4,306 nt of DNA from a virus (IMGVR_UViG_2531839620_000008), one strand, 5' to 3'. Positions 1 through 4,306 are shown, counted from the first letter of the stretch. A program made the numbers and translations. The notes: generated by a model not told the origin, from the sequence alone.

Positions 1-199
1 CGGACAGGGCGTGCGTGTTGAAGGCTCCAGCCCGTCCCTGTTTGTCCGGACTGATGATGTGCGGCAACTGCGGCGTGGAGACACGCTGACCATCGGTGAG
101 GAAAACTTCTGGATAGACCGGATTTCGACGGATGATGGCGGAAGCTGTCATCTCTGGCTTGGGCGGGGCGTACCGCCTGCCGTTAACCGTCGTCGCTGA
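1..199 (+). CDS. FII: Head-tail joining protein gpFII, C-terminal fragment (5' end lies upstream of the window)
   Basis: The reading frame is open from the window edge (codons from nt 2: G-Q-G-V-R-V-E-G-S-S...) to TGA at 197-199. The translation ...VEGSSPSLFVRTDDVRQLRRGDTLTIGEENFWIDRISTDDGGSCHLWLGRGVPPAVNRRR matches the C-terminus of lambda gpFII as I recall it. The 'M' at 11 in the ORF track is an internal GTG, not the true start. Position directly upstream of Z fits lambda gene order. Confidence 0.85.
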   Translation, partial: GQGVRVEGSSPSLFVRTDDVRQLRRGDTLTIGEENFWIDRISTDDGGSCHLWLGRGVPPAVNRRR

Positions 200-207
200 A
201 GGGGGGA
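198..207 (+). promoter_or_regulatory. Shine-Dalgarno region for Z (GAAGGGGGGA), 3 nt upstream of the ATG at 211
   Basis: Purine/G-rich tract immediately 5' of the Z start codon, overlapping the FII stop codon. Confidence 0.6.
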
Positions 208-210
208 TGT

Positions 211-789
211 ATGGCCATAAAAGGTCTTGAGCAGGCCGTTGAAAACCTCAGTCGTATCAGCAAAACGGCGGTGCCTGGTGCGTCAGCAATGGCCATTAAC
301 CGCGTTGCTTCATCCGCGATATCGCAGTCGGCGTCACAGGTTGCCCGTGAGACAAGAGTACGCCGGAAACTGGTAAAGGAAAGGGCCAGGCTGAAAAGGG
401 CCACGGTTAAAAATCCGCAGGCCAGAATCAAGGTTAACCGGGGGGATTTGCCCGTAATCAAGCTGGGTAACGCGCGGGTTGTCCTGTCCCGACGCAGGCG
501 TCGTAAAAAGGGGCAGCGTTCATCCCTGAAAGGTGGCGGCAGCGTGCTTGTGGTGGGAAACCGTCGTATTCCCGGCGCGTTTATTCAGCAACTGAAAAAT
601 GGCCGGTGGCATGTCATGCAGCGTGTGGCCGGGAAAAACCGTTACCCCATTGATGTGGTGAAAATCCCGATGGCGGTGCCGCTGACCACGGCGTTTAAAC
701 AGAATATTGAGCGGATACGGCGTGAACGTCTTCCGAAAGAGCTGGGCTATGCGCTGCAGCATCAACTGAGAATGGTAATAAAGCGATGA
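211..789 (+). CDS. Z: Tail completion protein gpZ (192 aa)
   Basis: ORF 211-789 with ATG start and an SD just upstream. The translation MAIKGLEQAVENLSRISKTAVPG...RRRRRKKGQRSSLKGGG...[11 protein letters not shown] matches lambda gpZ in sequence and length as recalled. Lies between FII and U as in lambda. Confidence 0.95.
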   Translation: MAIKGLEQAVENLSRISKTAVPGASAMAINRVASSAISQSASQVARETRVRRKLVKERARLKRATVKNPQARIKVNRGDLPVIKLGNARVVLSRRRRRKKGQRSSLKGGGSVLVVGNRRIPGAFIQQLKNGRWHVMQRVAGKNRYPIDVVKIPMAVPLTTAFKQNIERIRRERLPKELGYALQHQLRMVIKR

Positions 790-1181
790 AACATACTGAA
801 CTCCGTGCAGCCGTACTGGATGCACTGGAGAAGCATGACACCGGGGCGACGTTTTTTGATGGTCGCCCCGCTGTTTTTGATGAGGCGGATTTTCCGGCAG
901 TTGCCGTTTATCTCACCGGCGCTGAATACACGGGCGAAGAGCTGGACAGCGATACCTGGCAGGCGGAGCTGCATATCGAAGTTTTCCTGCCTGCTCAGGT
1001 GCCGGATTCAGAGCTGGATGCGTGGATGGAGTCCCGGATTTATCCGGTGATGAGCGATATCCCGGCACTATCAGATTTGATCACCAGTATGGTGGCCAGT
1101 GGCTATGACTACCGGCGCGACGATGATGCGGGCCTGTGGAGTTCAGCCGATCTGACTTATGTCATTACCTATGAAATGTGA
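786..1181 (+). CDS. U: Tail terminator protein gpU (131 aa)
   Basis: ORF 786-1181. Its start codon overlaps the Z stop in an ATGA arrangement (ATG 786-788, TGA 787-789), indicating translational coupling. The translation [54 protein letters not shown]...LTYVITYEM matches lambda gpU as recalled. Confidence 0.95.
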
Positions 1182-1184
1182 GGA
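1180..1184 (+). promoter_or_regulatory. Shine-Dalgarno (GAGGA) for V, 4 nt upstream of the ATG at 1189
   Basis: GAGGA motif overlapping the U stop codon (TGA 1179-1181), immediately before the V start. Confidence 0.65.
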
Positions 1185-1188
1185 CGAT

Positions 1189-1929
1189 ATGCCAACACCA
1201 AATCCTCTGGCACCGGTGAAAGGGGCCGGGACCACACTGTGGGTTTATAACGGGAACGGCGACCCATATGCAAACCCGCTTTCAGACAATGACTGGTCGC
1301 GTCTGGCAAAGGTTAAAGACCTGACGCCCGGCGAACTGACCGCTGAGTCCTATGACGACAGTTATCTCGATGATGAAGATGCGGACTGGGCCGCGACCGG
1401 ACAGGGGCAGAAATCCGCTGGAGATACCAGCTTCACGCTGGCGTGGATGCCCGGAGAGCAGGGGCAGCAGGCGCTGCTGGCGTGGTTTAATGAAGGTGAT
1501 ACCCGTGCCTATAAAATCCGCTTCCCGAACGGCACGGTCGATGTGTTCCGCGGCTGGGTCAGCAGTATCGGTAAGGCGGTGACGGCGAAGGAAGTGATCA
1601 CCCGCACGGTGAAAGTCACCAACGTGGGACGTCCGTCGATGGCAGAAGATCGCAGCACGGTAACAGCGGCAACCGGCATGACCGTGACGCCTGCCAGCAC
1701 CTCGGTGGTGAAAGGGCAGAGCACGACGCTGACCGTGGCATTCCAGCCGGAAGGCGCAACCGACAAGAGCTTCCGTGCGGTGTCTGCGGATAAAACAAAA
1801 GCCACCGTGTCGGTCAGTGGTATGACCATCACCGTGAAAGGTGTTGCTGCAGGCAAGGTCAACATTCCGGTCGTATCCGGTAATGGTGAGTTTGCTGCGG
1901 TTGCAGAAATCAACGTCACCGCCAGTTAA
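1189..1929 (+). CDS. V: Major tail tube protein gpV (246 aa) with C-terminal Ig-like domain
   Basis: The ORF track frame is open from 1159, but the SD-preceded ATG at 1189 gives [20 protein letters not shown]...AEINVTAS and a 246-aa product, the length I recall for lambda gpV. Strong similarity to lambda gpV through the N-terminal tube domain and the C-terminal Ig-like region. Stop TAA at 1927-1929. Confidence 0.95.
1666..1926 (+). other. Ig-like (Big_2-type) C-terminal domain of gpV (approximate boundaries)
   Basis: The C-terminal ~85 residues (…[90 protein letters not shown]) show the alternating hydrophobic/Thr/Val beta-strand pattern typical of bacterial Ig-like domains. Lambda gpV is known to carry a dispensable C-terminal Ig-like domain. 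Confidence 0.7.
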
Positions 1930-1932
1930 TCC

Positions 1933-1937
1933 GGAGA
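1933..1937 (+). promoter_or_regulatory. Shine-Dalgarno (GGAGA) for G, 7 nt upstream of the ATG at 1945
   Basis: GGAGA motif in the 15-nt V-G intergenic spacer. Confidence 0.65.
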
Positions 1938-1944
1938 ATCAGCG

Positions 1945-2367
1945 ATGTTCCTGAAAACCGAATCATTTGAACATAACGGCGTGACCGTCACGCTTTCTGA
2001 ACTGTCAGCCCTGCAGCGTATTGAGCATCTCGCCCTGATGAAACGGCAGGCAGAACAGGCGGAGTCAGACAGCAACCGGAAGTTTACTGTGGAAGACGCC
2101 ATCAGAACCGGCGCTTTTGTGGTGGCGATGTCCCTGTGGCATAACCATCCGAAGAAGACGCAGATGCCGTCCATGAATGAAGCCGTTAAACAGATTGAGC
2201 AGGAAGTGCTTACCACCTGGCCCGCGGAGGCAATTTCTCATGCTGAAAACGTGGTGTACCGGCTGTCCGGTATGTATGAGTTTGTGGTGAATGATGCCCC
2301 TGAACAGGCAGAGGACGCCGGGCCTGCAGAGCCTGTTTCTGCGGGAAAGTGTTCGACGGTGAGCTGA
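1945..2367 (+). CDS. G: Tail assembly chaperone gpG (140 aa)
   Basis: ORF 1945-2367. The translation MFLKTESFEHNGVTVTLSELSALQRIEHLALMKRQAEQAESD...SAGKCSTVS matches lambda gpG as recalled. The slippery heptamer GGGAAAG lies 6 codons before the stop, as in lambda. Confidence 0.93.
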   Translation: MFLKTESFEHNGVTVTLSELSALQRIEHLALMKRQAEQAESDSNRKFTVEDAIRTGAFVVAMSLWHNHPKKTQMPSMNEAVKQIEQEVLTTWPAEAISHAENVVYRLSGMYEFVVNDAPEQAEDAGPAEPVSAGKCSTVS

Positions 2368-2783
2368 GTTTTGCCCTGAAACTGGCGCGCGAGATGGGGC
2401 GACCCGACTGGCGTGCCATGCTTGCCGGGATGTCATCCACGGAGTATGCCGACTGGCACCGCTTTTACAGTACCCATTATTTTCATGATGTTCTGCTGGA
2501 TATGCACTTTTCCGGGCTGACGTACACCGTGCTCAGCCTGTTTTTCAGCGATCCGGATATGCATCCGCTGGATTTCAGTCTGCTGAACCGGCGTGAGGCT
2601 GACGAAGAGCCTGAAGATGATGTGCTGATGCAGAAAGCGGCAGGGCTTGCTGGAGGCGTTCGTTTTGGCCCGGACGGGAATGAAGTTATCCCCGCTTCCC
2701 CGGATGTGGCGGACATGACGGAGGATGACGTAATGCTGATGACAGTATCAGAAGGGATCGCAGGAGGAGTCCGGTATGGCTGA
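1945..2783 (+). CDS. T: Tail assembly chaperone gpGT, made by -1 frameshift at 2343-2349 (G residues 1-135 plus 144 T-frame codons, ~279 aa)
   Basis: The T frame (2349-2783; ...FDGELSFALKLAREMGRPDWRAMLAGMSSTEYADWHRFYSTHYFHDVLLDMHFSGL...GIAGGVRYG) has no ATG or SD of its own; the 'M' at 2349 in the ORF track is a GTG. It directly follows the slippery site, and its translation matches the lambda T region as recalled. Confidence 0.85.
2343..2349 (+). promoter_or_regulatory. Programmed -1 ribosomal frameshift slippery heptamer G_GGA_AAG (G frame), joining G to the T frame
   Basis: GGGAAAG at 2343-2349 is positioned in the G frame as G GGA AAG. The -1 frame is open from here to TGA at 2781-2783. 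This is the established lambda G-T frameshift arrangement. Confidence 0.85.
2762..2769 (+). promoter_or_regulatory. Shine-Dalgarno (AGGAGGAG) for H, 6 nt upstream of the ATG at 2776, inside the 3' end of the T frame
   Basis: Strong AGGAGG motif with canonical spacing to the H start codon. Confidence 0.75.
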
Positions 2784-4306
2784 ACCGGTAGGCGATCTGG
2801 TCGTTGATTTAAGTCTGGATGCGGCCAGATTTGACGAGCAGATGGCCAGAGTCAGGCGTCATTTTTCCGGTACGGAAAGTGATGCGAAAAAAACAGCGGC
2901 AGTCGTTGAACAGTCGATGAGCCGGCAGGCGCTGGCTGCACAGAAAGCGGGAATTTCCGTCGGGCAGTATAAAGCCGCCATGCGTATGCTGCCTGCGCAG
3001 TTCACTGACGTGGCCACGCAGCTTGCAGGTGGGCAAAGTCCGTGGCTGATCCTGCTGCAACAGGGGGGGCAGGTGAAGGACTCCTTCGGCGGGATGATCC
3101 CCATGTTCCGGGGGCTTGCCGGTGCGATCACCCTGCCGATGGTGGGGGCCACCTCGCTGGCGGTGGCGACCGGTGCGCTGGCGTATGCCTGGTATCAGGG
3201 CAACTCAACCCTGTCCGATTTCAACAAAACGCTGGTCCTTTCCGGCAATCAGGCCGGGCTGACGGCAGATCGTATGCTGGTCCTGTCCAGAGCCGGGCAG
3301 GCGGCAGGGCTGACGTTTAACCAGACCAGCGAGTCACTCAGCGCACTGGTTAAGGCGGGGGTAAGCGGTGAGGCTCAGATTGCGTCCATCAGCCAGAGTG
3401 TGGCGCGTTTCTCCTCTGCATCAGGCGTGGAGGTGGACAAGGTCGCTGAAGCCTTCGGGAAGCTGACCACTGACCCGACGTCGGGGCTGACAGCGATGGC
3501 GCGCCAGTTCCATAACGTGACGGCGGAGCAGATTGCGTATGTTGCTCAGTTGCAGCGTTCCGGCGAAGAAGCCGGGGCATTGCAGGCGGCGAACGAGGCC
3601 GCGACGAAAGGGTTTGATGACCAGACCCGCCGCCTGAAAGAGAACATGGGCACGCTGGAAACCTGGGCAGACAGGACAGCACGGGCATTCAAATCCATGT
3701 GGGATGCGGTGCTGGATATTGGTCGTCCTGATACCGCGCAGGAGATGCTGATTAAGGCAGAGGCCGCGTTTAAGAAAGCGGACGATATCTGGAATCTGCG
3801 CAAGGATGATTATTTTGTTAACGATGAAGCGCGGGCGCGTTACTGGGATGATCGTGAAAAGGCCCGTCTTGCGCTTGAAGCCGCCCGAAAGAAGGCTGAG
3901 CAGCAGAGTCAACAGGACAAAAATGCGCAGCAACAGAGCGATACCGAAGCGTCACGGCTGAAATATACCGAAGAGGCGCAGAAGGCTTACGAACGCCTGC
4001 AGACGCCGCTGGAGAAATATACCGCCCGTCAGGAAGAACTGAATAAGGCACTGAAAGACGGGAAAATCCTGCAGGCAGATTACAACACGCTGATGGCGGC
4101 GGCGAAAAAGGATTATGAATCGACGCTGAAAAAGCCGAAGTCGTCAGGAGTCAAAGTGTCAGCCGGTGAGCGTCAGGAAGACCAGGCGCATGCTGCCCTG
4201 CTGGCGCTTGAAACCGAGCTCAGGACGCTGGAAAAACACAGCGGTGCGAATGAGAAAATCAGCCAGCAGCGTCGCGATTTATGGAAAGCGGAAAATCAGT
4301 ATGCGG
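2776..4306 (+). CDS. H: Tail tape measure protein gpH, N-terminal ~510 codons (3' end beyond the window)
   Basis: ATG at 2776 preceded by AGGAGG. I translated the frame by hand and it is open with no stop to the window edge: MAEPVGDLVVDLSLDAARFDEQMARVRRHFSGTESDAKK...QQGGQVKDSFGGMIPMFRGLAGAITLPMVGATSLAVATGALAYAWYQGNSTLSDFNKTLVLSGNQAGLTADRMLVLSRAGQAAGLTFNQ...KISQQRRDLWKAENQYA. Matches lambda gpH as recalled. It is absent from the ORF track only because it has no in-window stop codon. It overlaps the end of the T frame by 8 nt. Confidence 0.93.
   Translation, partial: MAEPVGDLVVDLSLDAARFDEQMARVRRHFSGTESDAKKTAAVVEQSMSRQALAAQKAGISVGQYKAAMRMLPAQFTDVATQLAGGQSPWLILLQQGGQVKDSFGGMIPMFRGLAGAITLPMVGATSLAVATGALAYAWYQGNSTLSDFNKTLVLSGNQAGLTADRMLVLSRAGQAAGLTFNQTSESLSALVKAGVSGEAQIASISQSVARFSSASGVEVDKVAEAFGKLTTDPTSGLTAMARQFHNVTAEQIAYVAQLQRSGEEAGALQAANEAATKGFDDQTRRLKENMGTLETWADRTARAFKSMWDAVLDIGRPDTAQEMLIKAEAAFKKADDIWNLRKDDYFVNDEARARYWDDREKARLALEAARKKAEQQSQQDKNAQQQSDTEASRLKYTEEAQKAYERLQTPLEKYTARQEELNKALKDGKILQADYNTLMAAAKKDYESTLKKPKSSGVKVSAGERQEDQAHAALLALETELRTLEKHSGANEKISQQRRDLWKAENQYA

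What the first reader, a model, noticed from the sequence alone, without database searches (positions are those of the whole stretch)
2343..2783. G-T programmed -1 ribosomal frameshift is intact
The slippery heptamer G GGA AAG sits in the G frame 6 codons before the G stop, and the -1 frame is open for 144 codons to a TGA at 2781-2783. That frame has no start codon or SD of its own, so it can only be expressed as a G-T fusion. This recoding arrangement is conserved in long-tailed phages, and automated gene callers routinely miss it or mis-annotate T as a separate GTG-initiated gene.
Basis: partly seen in the sequence, partly recalled or inferred. Interest (0 to 1): 0.5.

Follow-up and report, generated by a model that had tools for sequence, protein, structure and literature searches.

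The report
Phage lambda G-T tail-chaperone frameshift site
This is the well-known programmed -1 ribosomal frameshift of phage lambda's tail-assembly chaperone genes G and T, here in an intact near-identical copy from an E. coli O157:H7 lambda-like prophage; it is real but ordinary.

Summary
GGGAAAG lies at 2343-2349 in the register G_GGA_AAG of gene G (1945-2367). Five sense codons and the G stop (TGA 2365-2367) follow. The -1 frame runs 144 codons from 2349 to TGA 2781-2783, giving a 279-aa G-T fusion.

The window is 96.4% identical to phage lambda 7767-12066, and its G-T block is 100% identical to E. coli O157:H7 prophages. The T-frame protein is identical to lambda T, and G differs at 5 residues. 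The 64 bases around the slip site (2326-2389) match lambda exactly. This is therefore the lambda G/GT recoding site (Levin, Hendrix and Casjens 1993; Xu et al. 2004, 2013, 2014).

In 84 of 85 related loci, with T identity down to 36%, T lies in the -1 frame of G with an in-register A_AAG or A_AAA in the overlap. The overlap is as short as 16 nt.

One correction: the T frame does contain start codons (GTG 2349 and several ATGs), but none that could yield a T-domain product has a convincing Shine-Dalgarno. Databases do annotate T as a separate GTG gene.

A candidate downstream stem-loop (2357-2427) failed covariation and recoding tests. Verdict: already known, low interest.

The parts
1945..2367 (+). 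Gene G, tail assembly chaperone gpG (140 aa), zero frame; stop TGA 2365-2367
   Evidence: ORF. PF06894 E=1.8e-59 and TIGR01674 equivalog E=2.5e-64. 97.6% nt identity and 5 aa differences versus lambda G. SD GGAG at 1933-1936, -6.6 kcal/mol.
2343..2349 (+). Slippery heptamer G_GGA_AAG, the -1 shift site
   Evidence: Register checked. Identical in lambda. In-register A_AAG or A_AAA is conserved in 84 of 85 related loci. Named as lambda's slip site in PMC3296357 Table 1 and PMC7618472.
2304..2367 (+). Stretch where both the G frame and the -1 (T) frame are open; the shift must occur here
   Evidence: T-frame upstream stop TGA at 2301-2303, G stop at 2365-2367. In relatives this stretch shrinks to as little as 16 nt and still contains the motif (L091).
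2349..2783 (+). T segment in the -1 frame (144 codons plus TGA 2781-2783), expressed as the C-terminal domain of gpGT
   Evidence: PF06223 E=2.1e-14 and TIGR01715 E=1.9e-56. Six nt differences from lambda, all synonymous in this frame.
1945..2783 (+). Predicted gpGT fusion coding region (279 aa: G residues 1-135, then the -1 frame from 2349)
   Evidence: The fusion carries both Pfam domains (protein 3). 100% nt identity to prophages in E. coli O157:H7 genomes.
1189..1929 (+). Gene V, major tail tube protein; upstream neighbour and binding partner of the T domain in lambda
   Evidence: PF16461 plus a Big_2 domain. Lambda annotation. T-V binding is from the literature.
2776..4306 (+). Gene H, tape measure protein (first 510 codons); downstream neighbour and binding partner of gpG. 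ATG 2776 overlaps the end of T; SD AGGAGGAG at 2762-2769
   Evidence: PF06791 E=2.7e-70. SD -10.3 kcal/mol. Lambda annotation.
2357..2427 (+). Candidate downstream stem-loop, 7 nt after the heptamer; tested and NOT supported as a conserved element
   Evidence: MFE fold has z=-1.69. 92% of cells pair in 7 close relatives but 67.8% in 61 diverse ones against 65.1% in shuffles. RNAalifold consensus is -1.46 kcal/mol. Synonymous-recoding z=-1.78, matched or exceeded by 5 of 37 control segments. Pairing decays with divergence.

Best explanation
This is the phage lambda G/GT programmed -1 ribosomal frameshift, in a lambda-type prophage of E. coli O157:H7. Ribosomes start at the G ATG (1945). About 96% read straight through and stop at TGA 2365, producing gpG (140 aa). 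About 4% slip back one base while decoding G_GGA_AAG (2343-2349): tRNA-Gly re-pairs from GGA to GGG, and the single E. coli tRNA-Lys (mnm5s2UUU) re-pairs from AAG to AAA. These ribosomes continue in the -1 frame to TGA 2781 and produce gpGT (279 aa). gpG and the G part of gpGT coat the tape measure protein H. The T domain recruits the tail tube protein V so that V polymerises around H. Both chaperones then leave, and the roughly 30:1 ratio set by the slip rate is needed for tail assembly. Shown here: the sequence layout, its identity to lambda, family membership and family-wide conservation of the layout. Taken from the lambda literature: the slip rate, the fusion product and the chaperone roles. 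Inferred: that this copy behaves the same way.
For: Geometry and the 279-aa fusion. The window is collinear with lambda 7767-12066 at 96.4% identity; T is identical at the protein level and bases 2326-2389 match lambda exactly. G = PF06894/TIGR01674 and T = PF06223/TIGR01715, lying between V (tail tube) and H (tape measure). All 6 nt differences from lambda in T are synonymous in the -1 frame. No start that could give a T-domain product has a competitive SD, and the scan finds no promoter-like site in 1800-2900. In 84 of 85 related loci (T identity 36-99%) T is in the -1 frame of G with an in-register A_AAG or A_AAA in the two-frame overlap, which is as short as 16 nt. Literature: about 4% shifting, about 30:1 ratio, essential for tail assembly, absent from virions, dependent on tRNA-Lys U34 modification, and G_GGA_AAG intrinsically shift-prone in E. 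coli.
Against: Nothing in the sequence argues against it. The caveats are these. No expression data exist for this particular copy. The heptamer alone is not statistically unusual. A GTG sits exactly at the first T codon, and databases use it as a start. The window is a prophage fragment, so we cannot tell whether the element is ever induced; in one O157:H7 genome the downstream tail-fibre gene is a pseudogene.
Confidence: 0.95

Rival explanations
1. T is an independent gene translated from GTG 2349 (or a downstream ATG), as public records annotate it, and the heptamer is incidental.
For: GTG 2349 opens a 144-codon ORF. Lambda RefSeq, PhiR26_1, HK630 and PGAP on O157:H7 all annotate exactly this CDS. 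An in-register heptamer is not rare by chance.
Against: SD pairing upstream of GTG 2349 is -4.3 kcal/mol, which 38% of all window positions reach, and the next three ATGs score -1.8 to -2.2. In relatives the codon at this position is GTG, GTC, GCA, GCC or ATA, so it is often not a start codon, and PGAP-style calls there begin at differing downstream sites. The -1 layout with A_AAG is kept in 84 of 85 loci. The lambda literature describes gpGT as made by the frameshift.
Confidence: 0.02
2. The signal is intact in sequence but is a silent relic. The host prophage is defective, so G, GT and the tail module are never productively expressed.
For: The closest matches are chromosomal prophages of O157:H7. 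In NZ_AP018488 the downstream tail-fibre gene carries an internal stop. Decayed copies exist elsewhere, such as Shigella flexneri L061.
Against: Every reading frame in the window is intact. The differences from lambda in T are all synonymous, and Z, U, V and H also show few amino-acid changes, indicating continued purifying selection. This rival concerns activity of the element, not what the site is.
Confidence: 0.15
3. The G-T fusion arises by transcriptional slippage of RNA polymerase at the A run rather than by ribosomal slippage.
For: Transcriptional slippage yields frameshifted products in some bacterial and phage genes (reviewed in PMC5009743). Some relatives carry AAAAAAG.
Against: The run here is only three A residues, far shorter than known slippage-prone homopolymers (my knowledge). 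In lambda the GT level responds to tRNA-Lys U34 thiolation, which is a translational effect.
Confidence: 0.01
4. Frameshifting at this site is boosted by a downstream RNA stem-loop (2357-2427, 7-nt spacer), as in dnaX or retroviral sites.
For: The MFE fold places a helix 7 nt after the heptamer. In 7 close relatives 92% of cells pair and three pairs show double-sided changes. The native sequence is more stable than 95% of synonymous recodings.
Against: Across 61 diverse homologs only 67.8% of cells pair against 65.1% in shuffles. Fewer pairs show double-sided changes than in shuffles (12 vs 14.0), and RNAalifold finds no consensus. Pairing falls from 78-79% to 56-59% with divergence. Five of 37 control segments in the window are as extreme in the recoding test. 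No Rfam frameshift element matches. G_GGA_AAG alone is highly shift-prone in E. coli, enough for a low-percent rate. From memory, Levin et al. 1993 found no evidence for a pausing element; I could not check this because the paper is not held.
Confidence: 0.06

Closest known systems
Bacteriophage lambda genes G and T (gpG/gpGT), -1 PRF at G_GGA_AAG (Levin, Hendrix & Casjens 1993; Xu, Hendrix & Duda 2004, 2013, 2014)
   Same: Same genes in the same order (V-G-T-H), same heptamer, same register, same distance to the G stop and same T stop/H start overlap. The T protein is identical. The G-T region is 97.6-98.6% identical in nucleotides.
   Different: Five amino-acid substitutions in G (L59V, Q70K, T94A, N117D, T122A, written lambda to window) and 16 nucleotide differences across G-T, none within 2326-2389. 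The host element is an O157:H7 prophage rather than lambda itself.
N15 / HK225 / Gifsy-1 / mEp460-type G-T homologs
   Same: Homologous G and T domains, T in the -1 frame of G, and A_AAG in register in the overlap.
   Different: They use G_GAA_AAG, whose P-site codon cannot re-pair perfectly. Their G stop is 6, 2 or 1 codons after the motif. Their T is shorter (about 110 aa) and has one copy of the C-terminal GGVRYG motif where lambda-type T has two.
E. coli dnaX -1 frameshift (A_AAA_AAG)
   Same: A -1 slip that relies on the single E. coli tRNA-Lys re-pairing from AAG to AAA.
   Different: From my knowledge, dnaX has an upstream SD-like stimulator and a downstream hairpin and shifts at about 50%. 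Here no SD-like element lies within 30 nt upstream, no downstream structure is supported, and the reported rate is about 4%.

Membership tests
Lambda-type G/GT tail assembly chaperone frameshift (Xu et al. 2004) | Two overlapping ORFs located between the major tail (tube) gene and the tape measure gene | tested here: met
   The order is V (PF16461) 1189-1929, G 1945-2367, T 2349-2783, H (PF06791) 2776 onward.
Lambda-type G/GT tail assembly chaperone frameshift (Xu et al. 2004) | The downstream ORF is in the -1 frame relative to the upstream ORF and overlaps its 3' end | tested here: met
   The T frame is open from 2304 and the G stop is at 2365-2367, giving a 64-nt two-frame stretch. The same layout is found in 84 of 85 homologous loci.
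Lambda-type G/GT tail assembly chaperone frameshift (Xu et al. 2004) | A slippery sequence (X_XXY_YYZ) in the zero-frame register inside the overlap | tested here: met
   G_GGA_AAG at 2343-2349 is in register and identical to lambda's site (Table 1 of PMC3296357).
Lambda-type G/GT tail assembly chaperone frameshift (Xu et al. 2004) | The downstream ORF lacks its own translation initiation signals | tested here: inconclusive
   In-frame GTG and ATG codons exist. SD pairing is weak at those that could give a T-domain product: -4.3 kcal/mol at GTG 2349, a background-level value. No promoter-like site was found. Sequence alone cannot exclude low-level initiation.
Lambda-type G/GT tail assembly chaperone frameshift (Xu et al. 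2004) | A fusion protein is made at a low fixed ratio (about 1:30) and is required for tail assembly but absent from virions | not testable with these tools
   Established for lambda in the literature. For this copy it is inferred from sequence identity.
Pfam PF06894 Phage_TAC_2 / NCBIfam TIGR01674 phage_lambda_G | Score above the curated cut-off over the full-length model | tested here: met
   199.5 bits against a cut-off of 27, covering 1-125 of 126. 215.3 bits against 74.45, equivalog.
Pfam PF06223 Phage_tail_T / NCBIfam TIGR01715 phage_lam_T | Score above the curated cut-off over the full-length model | tested here: met
   54.1 bits against a cut-off of 25.9, covering 1-73 of 73. 189.1 bits against 77.35, equivalog.
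Structure-stimulated -1 PRF signals (dnaX, IS3/IS911 or retroviral type) | A conserved downstream hairpin or pseudoknot 5-9 nt after the heptamer, supported by covariation | tested here: not met
   The candidate helix 2357-2427 shows no family-wide support. It is not distinctive under synonymous recoding. No Rfam match.
Structure-stimulated -1 PRF signals (dnaX, IS3/IS911 or retroviral type) | An upstream SD-like stimulator about 10-14 nt before the slip site | tested here: not met
   No 9-mer in the 30 nt upstream pairs with the anti-SD at -4 kcal/mol or better.

The most novel reading that the evidence does not exclude
In the lambda-like clade only, the GC-rich stem-loop at 2357-2427, which starts 7 nt after G_GGA_AAG, might tune the frameshift rate and so the gpG:gpGT ratio. 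That would add a stimulatory or modulatory RNA element to a site usually described as depending on the slippery sequence alone. My tests show no family-wide conservation and no distinctive stability, but they cannot exclude a modest clade-specific effect.
Probability: 0.05. Interest if true: 0.25.

Novelty: already known. Interest (0 to 1): 0.06.

Why it matters
It matters mainly for annotation. The T reading frame here should be recorded as the -1 frameshift extension of G (a 279-aa gpGT product made by ribosomal slippage at 2343-2349), not as a stand-alone GTG-initiated gene. RefSeq lambda and PGAP annotations of thousands of E. coli genomes still use the stand-alone form. Biologically it adds nothing new: it is an intact copy of a textbook recoding site whose mechanism and role in setting the chaperone ratio for tail assembly were worked out in lambda.

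Tried and rejected
1. Downstream stimulatory RNA structure. The fold of 2350-2449 gave a helix with a 7-nt spacer that looked conserved in 7 close relatives. I then collected 61 distinct homologous sequences. The structure failed there: 67.8% of cells paired against 65.1% in shuffles, and no RNAalifold consensus. A synonymous-recoding null gave z=-1.78, but 5 of 37 control segments were equally extreme. Pairing decays with divergence in every geometry class. Rejected as a conserved element.

2. Upstream SD-like stimulator of the dnaX type. None within 30 nt.

3. Independent initiation of T. The SD scan and the promoter scan gave no support.

4. Statistical significance of the heptamer alone. 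Not significant, so the argument rests on context and conservation.

5. Solved structures of G or GT by sequence. None in the PDB at E up to 1. Structure prediction was not run because it would not bear on the finding.

6. Rfam scan of the window at E up to 1. The only match was a chance miRNA hit far below threshold.

7. Primary papers. Xu et al. 2013 and 2014 could not be retrieved and Levin et al. 1993 is not in the library. Their content is cited through reviews and through Maynard 2012.

8. A viral-contig scan returned only 99%-identical copies in its top 80 loci and added no diversity.

Full report
**1. What is in the sequence.**
The window carries one co-directional gene block on the + strand:
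- the 3' end of FII
- Z, 211-789
- U, 786-1181
- V, 1189-1929
- G, 1945-2367
- a 144-codon ORF in the -1 frame, 2349-2783
- the first 510 codons of H, from 2776

I checked the frames directly. GGGAAAG occurs once, at 2343-2349. The G frame reads GCG GGA AAG TGT TCG ACG GTG AGC TGA, so the heptamer is in the X_XXY_YYZ register and the G stop (2365-2367) is the sixth codon after AAG. The -1 frame is open from 2304 (upstream stop TGA 2301-2303) to TGA 2781-2783. That is 144 codons counted from 2349. A slip on the heptamer gives a 135 + 144 = 279-aa product. Every number in the finding is therefore correct.

**2. Is it more than chance?**
The heptamer alone is not. 115 of 200 dinucleotide-preserving shuffles contain at least one GGGAAAG. 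The six genes hold five in-register X_XXY_YYZ heptamers in about 1360 codons, which is about what 1/256 per codon predicts (my arithmetic). Three things set this one apart:
- It lies in a short two-frame overlap at the 3' end of a gene.
- Its -1 frame continues for 144 codons, against 4-83 for the other four.
- That -1 frame encodes a recognised protein domain and is conserved.

**3. Identity.**
- The whole window aligns without gaps to phage lambda 7767-12066 at 96.4% identity.
- In lambda, G is 9711-10133 and T is 10115-10549, which map exactly to window 1945-2367 and 2349-2783.
- T differs from lambda at 6 of 435 nucleotides, all synonymous in the -1 frame. G has 10 nucleotide and 5 amino-acid differences. 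Bases 2326-2389 around the slip site match lambda exactly.
- G matches PF06894 and the TIGR01674 equivalog. T matches PF06223 and the TIGR01715 equivalog. The fusion carries both domains.
- The G-T block is 100% identical to chromosomal prophages of E. coli O157:H7, and 3702 of 5426 complete E. coli genomes carry a relative.
- In O157:H7 strain PV15-279 the block sits in a complete lambda-type head-tail module. That prophage differs from the window at only 2 positions in 1-4112.

**4. Can T be made on its own?**
The finding says the T frame has no start codon. That is not literally true: GTG 2349 and ATGs at 2394, 2418, 2430 and further downstream are in frame. Pairing to the 16S anti-SD compares as follows:
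- GTG 2349: -4.3 kcal/mol.
- The next three ATGs: -1.8 to -2.2 kcal/mol.
- Z, V, G and H: -11.3, -5.9, -6.6 and -10.3 kcal/mol.
- 38% of all window positions reach -4 or better.

ATG 2733 and 2739 do follow a strong SD-like GGAGGA (-9.5 kcal/mol), but they could give only 16- and 14-residue peptides.

The scan found no promoter-like site in 1800-2900. In relatives the codon at the position of GTG 2349 is often GTC, GCA, GCC or ATA, which are not start codons. Independent initiation is therefore unsupported, though sequence alone cannot exclude it.

**5. Comparative evidence.**
I took T homologs from annotated phages and from one genome per species, 85 loci in all with T identity from 99% down to 36%. 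For each I located the T-frame open stretch, the stop of the upstream ORF and any in-register shift motif.
- In 84 of 85 loci, T is in the -1 frame of the G homolog, with an in-register A_AAG or A_AAA in the overlap.
- The exception, Shigella flexneri L061, is a decayed copy with several frame breaks.
- The overlap is as short as 16 nt (L091) and still contains the motif, which pins the shift site.
- A fully canonical heptamer is found in the lambda-like clade (GGGAAAG 18, AAAAAAG 2) and in one Providencia locus (GGGAAAA, L089).
- Most loci have G_GAA_AAG (56). A few have G_GCA_AAA, G_GTA_AAG or A_GAA_AAG.
- The G stop falls 6, 2 or 1 codons after the motif.

The conserved core is the A_AAG/A_AAA tetranucleotide. 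This fits the known shiftiness of the single E. coli tRNA-Lys on A_AAG (PMC5009743).

**6. Mechanism.**
The lambda literature establishes the following (Atkins et al. 2016 PMC5009743; Maynard et al. 2012 PMC3296357; PMC7618472):
- About 96% of ribosomes finish G.
- About 4% slip -1 on G_GGA_AAG and make gpGT, giving a gpG:gpGT ratio near 30:1.
- That ratio is crucial for tail assembly.
- gpG and the G part of gpGT bind the tape measure protein H.
- The T domain binds the tube protein V and starts its polymerisation.
- Neither chaperone is in the virion.
- Loss of tRNA-Lys U34 thiolation raises the slip rate and lowers phage yield.

The equivalent GGGAAAG site in lactococcal phage TP901-1 behaves likewise in mutagenesis (PMC4493119). 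For this window these steps are inferred from near-identity with lambda. Nothing about its expression was measured.

**7. Is there a stimulatory element?**
This was the only place where something new might have been hiding, so I tested it.
- Folding 2350-2449 puts a helix (2357-2364 with 2420-2427, enclosing 2384-2398 with 2403-2417) 7 nt after the heptamer. The MFE is -40.3 kcal/mol and z is -1.69.
- In 7 close relatives, 92% of cells pair and three pairs show double-sided changes.
- In 61 distinct homologs (ungapped alignment A3), pairing is 67.8% against 65.1% in shuffles. Fewer pairs have double-sided changes than in shuffles (12 vs 14.0).
- Against 1000 sequences encoding the same T peptide, the native RNA is at z=-1.78 (4.7% as stable). 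Five of 37 control segments across the window are equally extreme.
- Pairing falls from 78-79% to 56-59% as divergence grows. That is what a structure read off one sequence and then carried along by sequence conservation would show.
- No SD-like element lies within 30 nt upstream, and no Rfam family matches.

I conclude there is no supported stimulator. This fits the low rate and the intrinsic shiftiness of G_GGA_AAG in E. coli. It also matches my recollection that Levin et al. 1993 found no pausing element, which I could not verify because the paper is not held.

**8. Annotation.**
RefSeq lambda, PhiR26_1 and PGAP on O157:H7 list T as a separate CDS starting at the GTG. HK630 names it 'GT' but gives the same coordinates. 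Other records start T at arbitrary downstream codons. The Phage Annotation Guide flags gpG/gpGT as a case to handle by hand (PMC8785237).

**9. Verdict.**
- The feature is the already known lambda G/GT -1 programmed frameshift, present here as an intact copy in an O157:H7 lambda-like prophage.
- Interest is low. The practical value is correct annotation of a 279-aa gpGT.
- The most novel reading left open is a clade-specific downstream modulator, which I put at about 5%.

Noticed in passing
window 2598-2669 and 2709-2780 (T residues 84-107 and 121-144): The C-terminus of T contains an internal repeat with the motif DDV.LM....G[LI]AGGVR[FY]G. The BLOSUM62 local score is 60 against 18.6 +/- 4.0 for shuffles, with 0 of 2000 shuffles reaching it. 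Shorter N15/Gifsy-type T proteins carry a single copy. The codons of the second copy (GCA GGA GGA G, 2761-2769) also form the Shine-Dalgarno of H.
   Followed up: partly
L007-L011 and L030-L092 (slip-site regions): Most T-family loci do not have a canonical X_XXY_YYZ heptamer. G_GAA_AAG is the commonest motif (56 of 85 loci), and there are rarer G_GCA_AAA, G_GTA_AAG and A_GAA_AAG variants. The G stop lies 6, 2 or 1 codons after the motif. The conserved core is A_AAG/A_AAA.
   Followed up: partly
window 4113-4301 (inside H): The window differs from the O157:H7 PV15-279 prophage at 2 positions in 1-4112, then at 39 positions in 4113-4301. Lambda and PhiR26_1 are equally divergent there. This looks like a mosaic recombination junction inside the tape measure gene.
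   Followed up: partly
L014-L028, L041, L047, L072: Lambda G-T sequence at 98-100% T identity turns up on short contigs in assemblies labelled as non-hosts, several with about 1x coverage in the contig name (Neobacillus, Oceanobacillus, Kitasatospora, Chromatium, Leeuwenhoekiella, Marinifilum, Pseudoxanthomonas and others). This is most likely lambda DNA contamination of sequencing libraries.
   Followed up: no
L061 (Shigella flexneri CP182557, about 780-1380): This is a decayed G-T copy. GGGAAAG is retained, but the T reading frame is broken by several frameshifts and stops. It is an example of a copy that is not intact.
   Followed up: partly
window 3063-3069 (in H): A run of seven G forms an in-register G_GGG_GGG heptamer with an 83-codon open -1 frame (ORF 3042-3320). 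Lambda and the O157 prophage have it too, but PhiR26_1 reads GGGTGGT, so it is not conserved and is probably incidental.
   Followed up: yes
window 1159 vs 1189 (start of V): Records disagree on the V start. The GenBank lambda record J02459 and HK630 use the upstream ATG (256 aa); RefSeq lambda and PGAP use ATG 1189 (246 aa). ATG 1189 follows a GAGGA Shine-Dalgarno (-5.9 kcal/mol), while ATG 1159 has none (-2.2).
   Followed up: partly
window 786-789 and 2776-2783: Stop and start codons overlap in a way that suggests translational coupling. The U ATG (786-788) overlaps the Z stop (787-789) as ATGA. The H ATG (2776) lies 5 nt before the T stop (TGA 2781-2783).
   Followed up: no
window 2720-2735: A strong SD-like GGAGGA (-9.5 kcal/mol) lies 7 nt before an in-frame ATG (2733) near the end of T. 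It could only yield a 16-residue peptide and is probably incidental.
   Followed up: no
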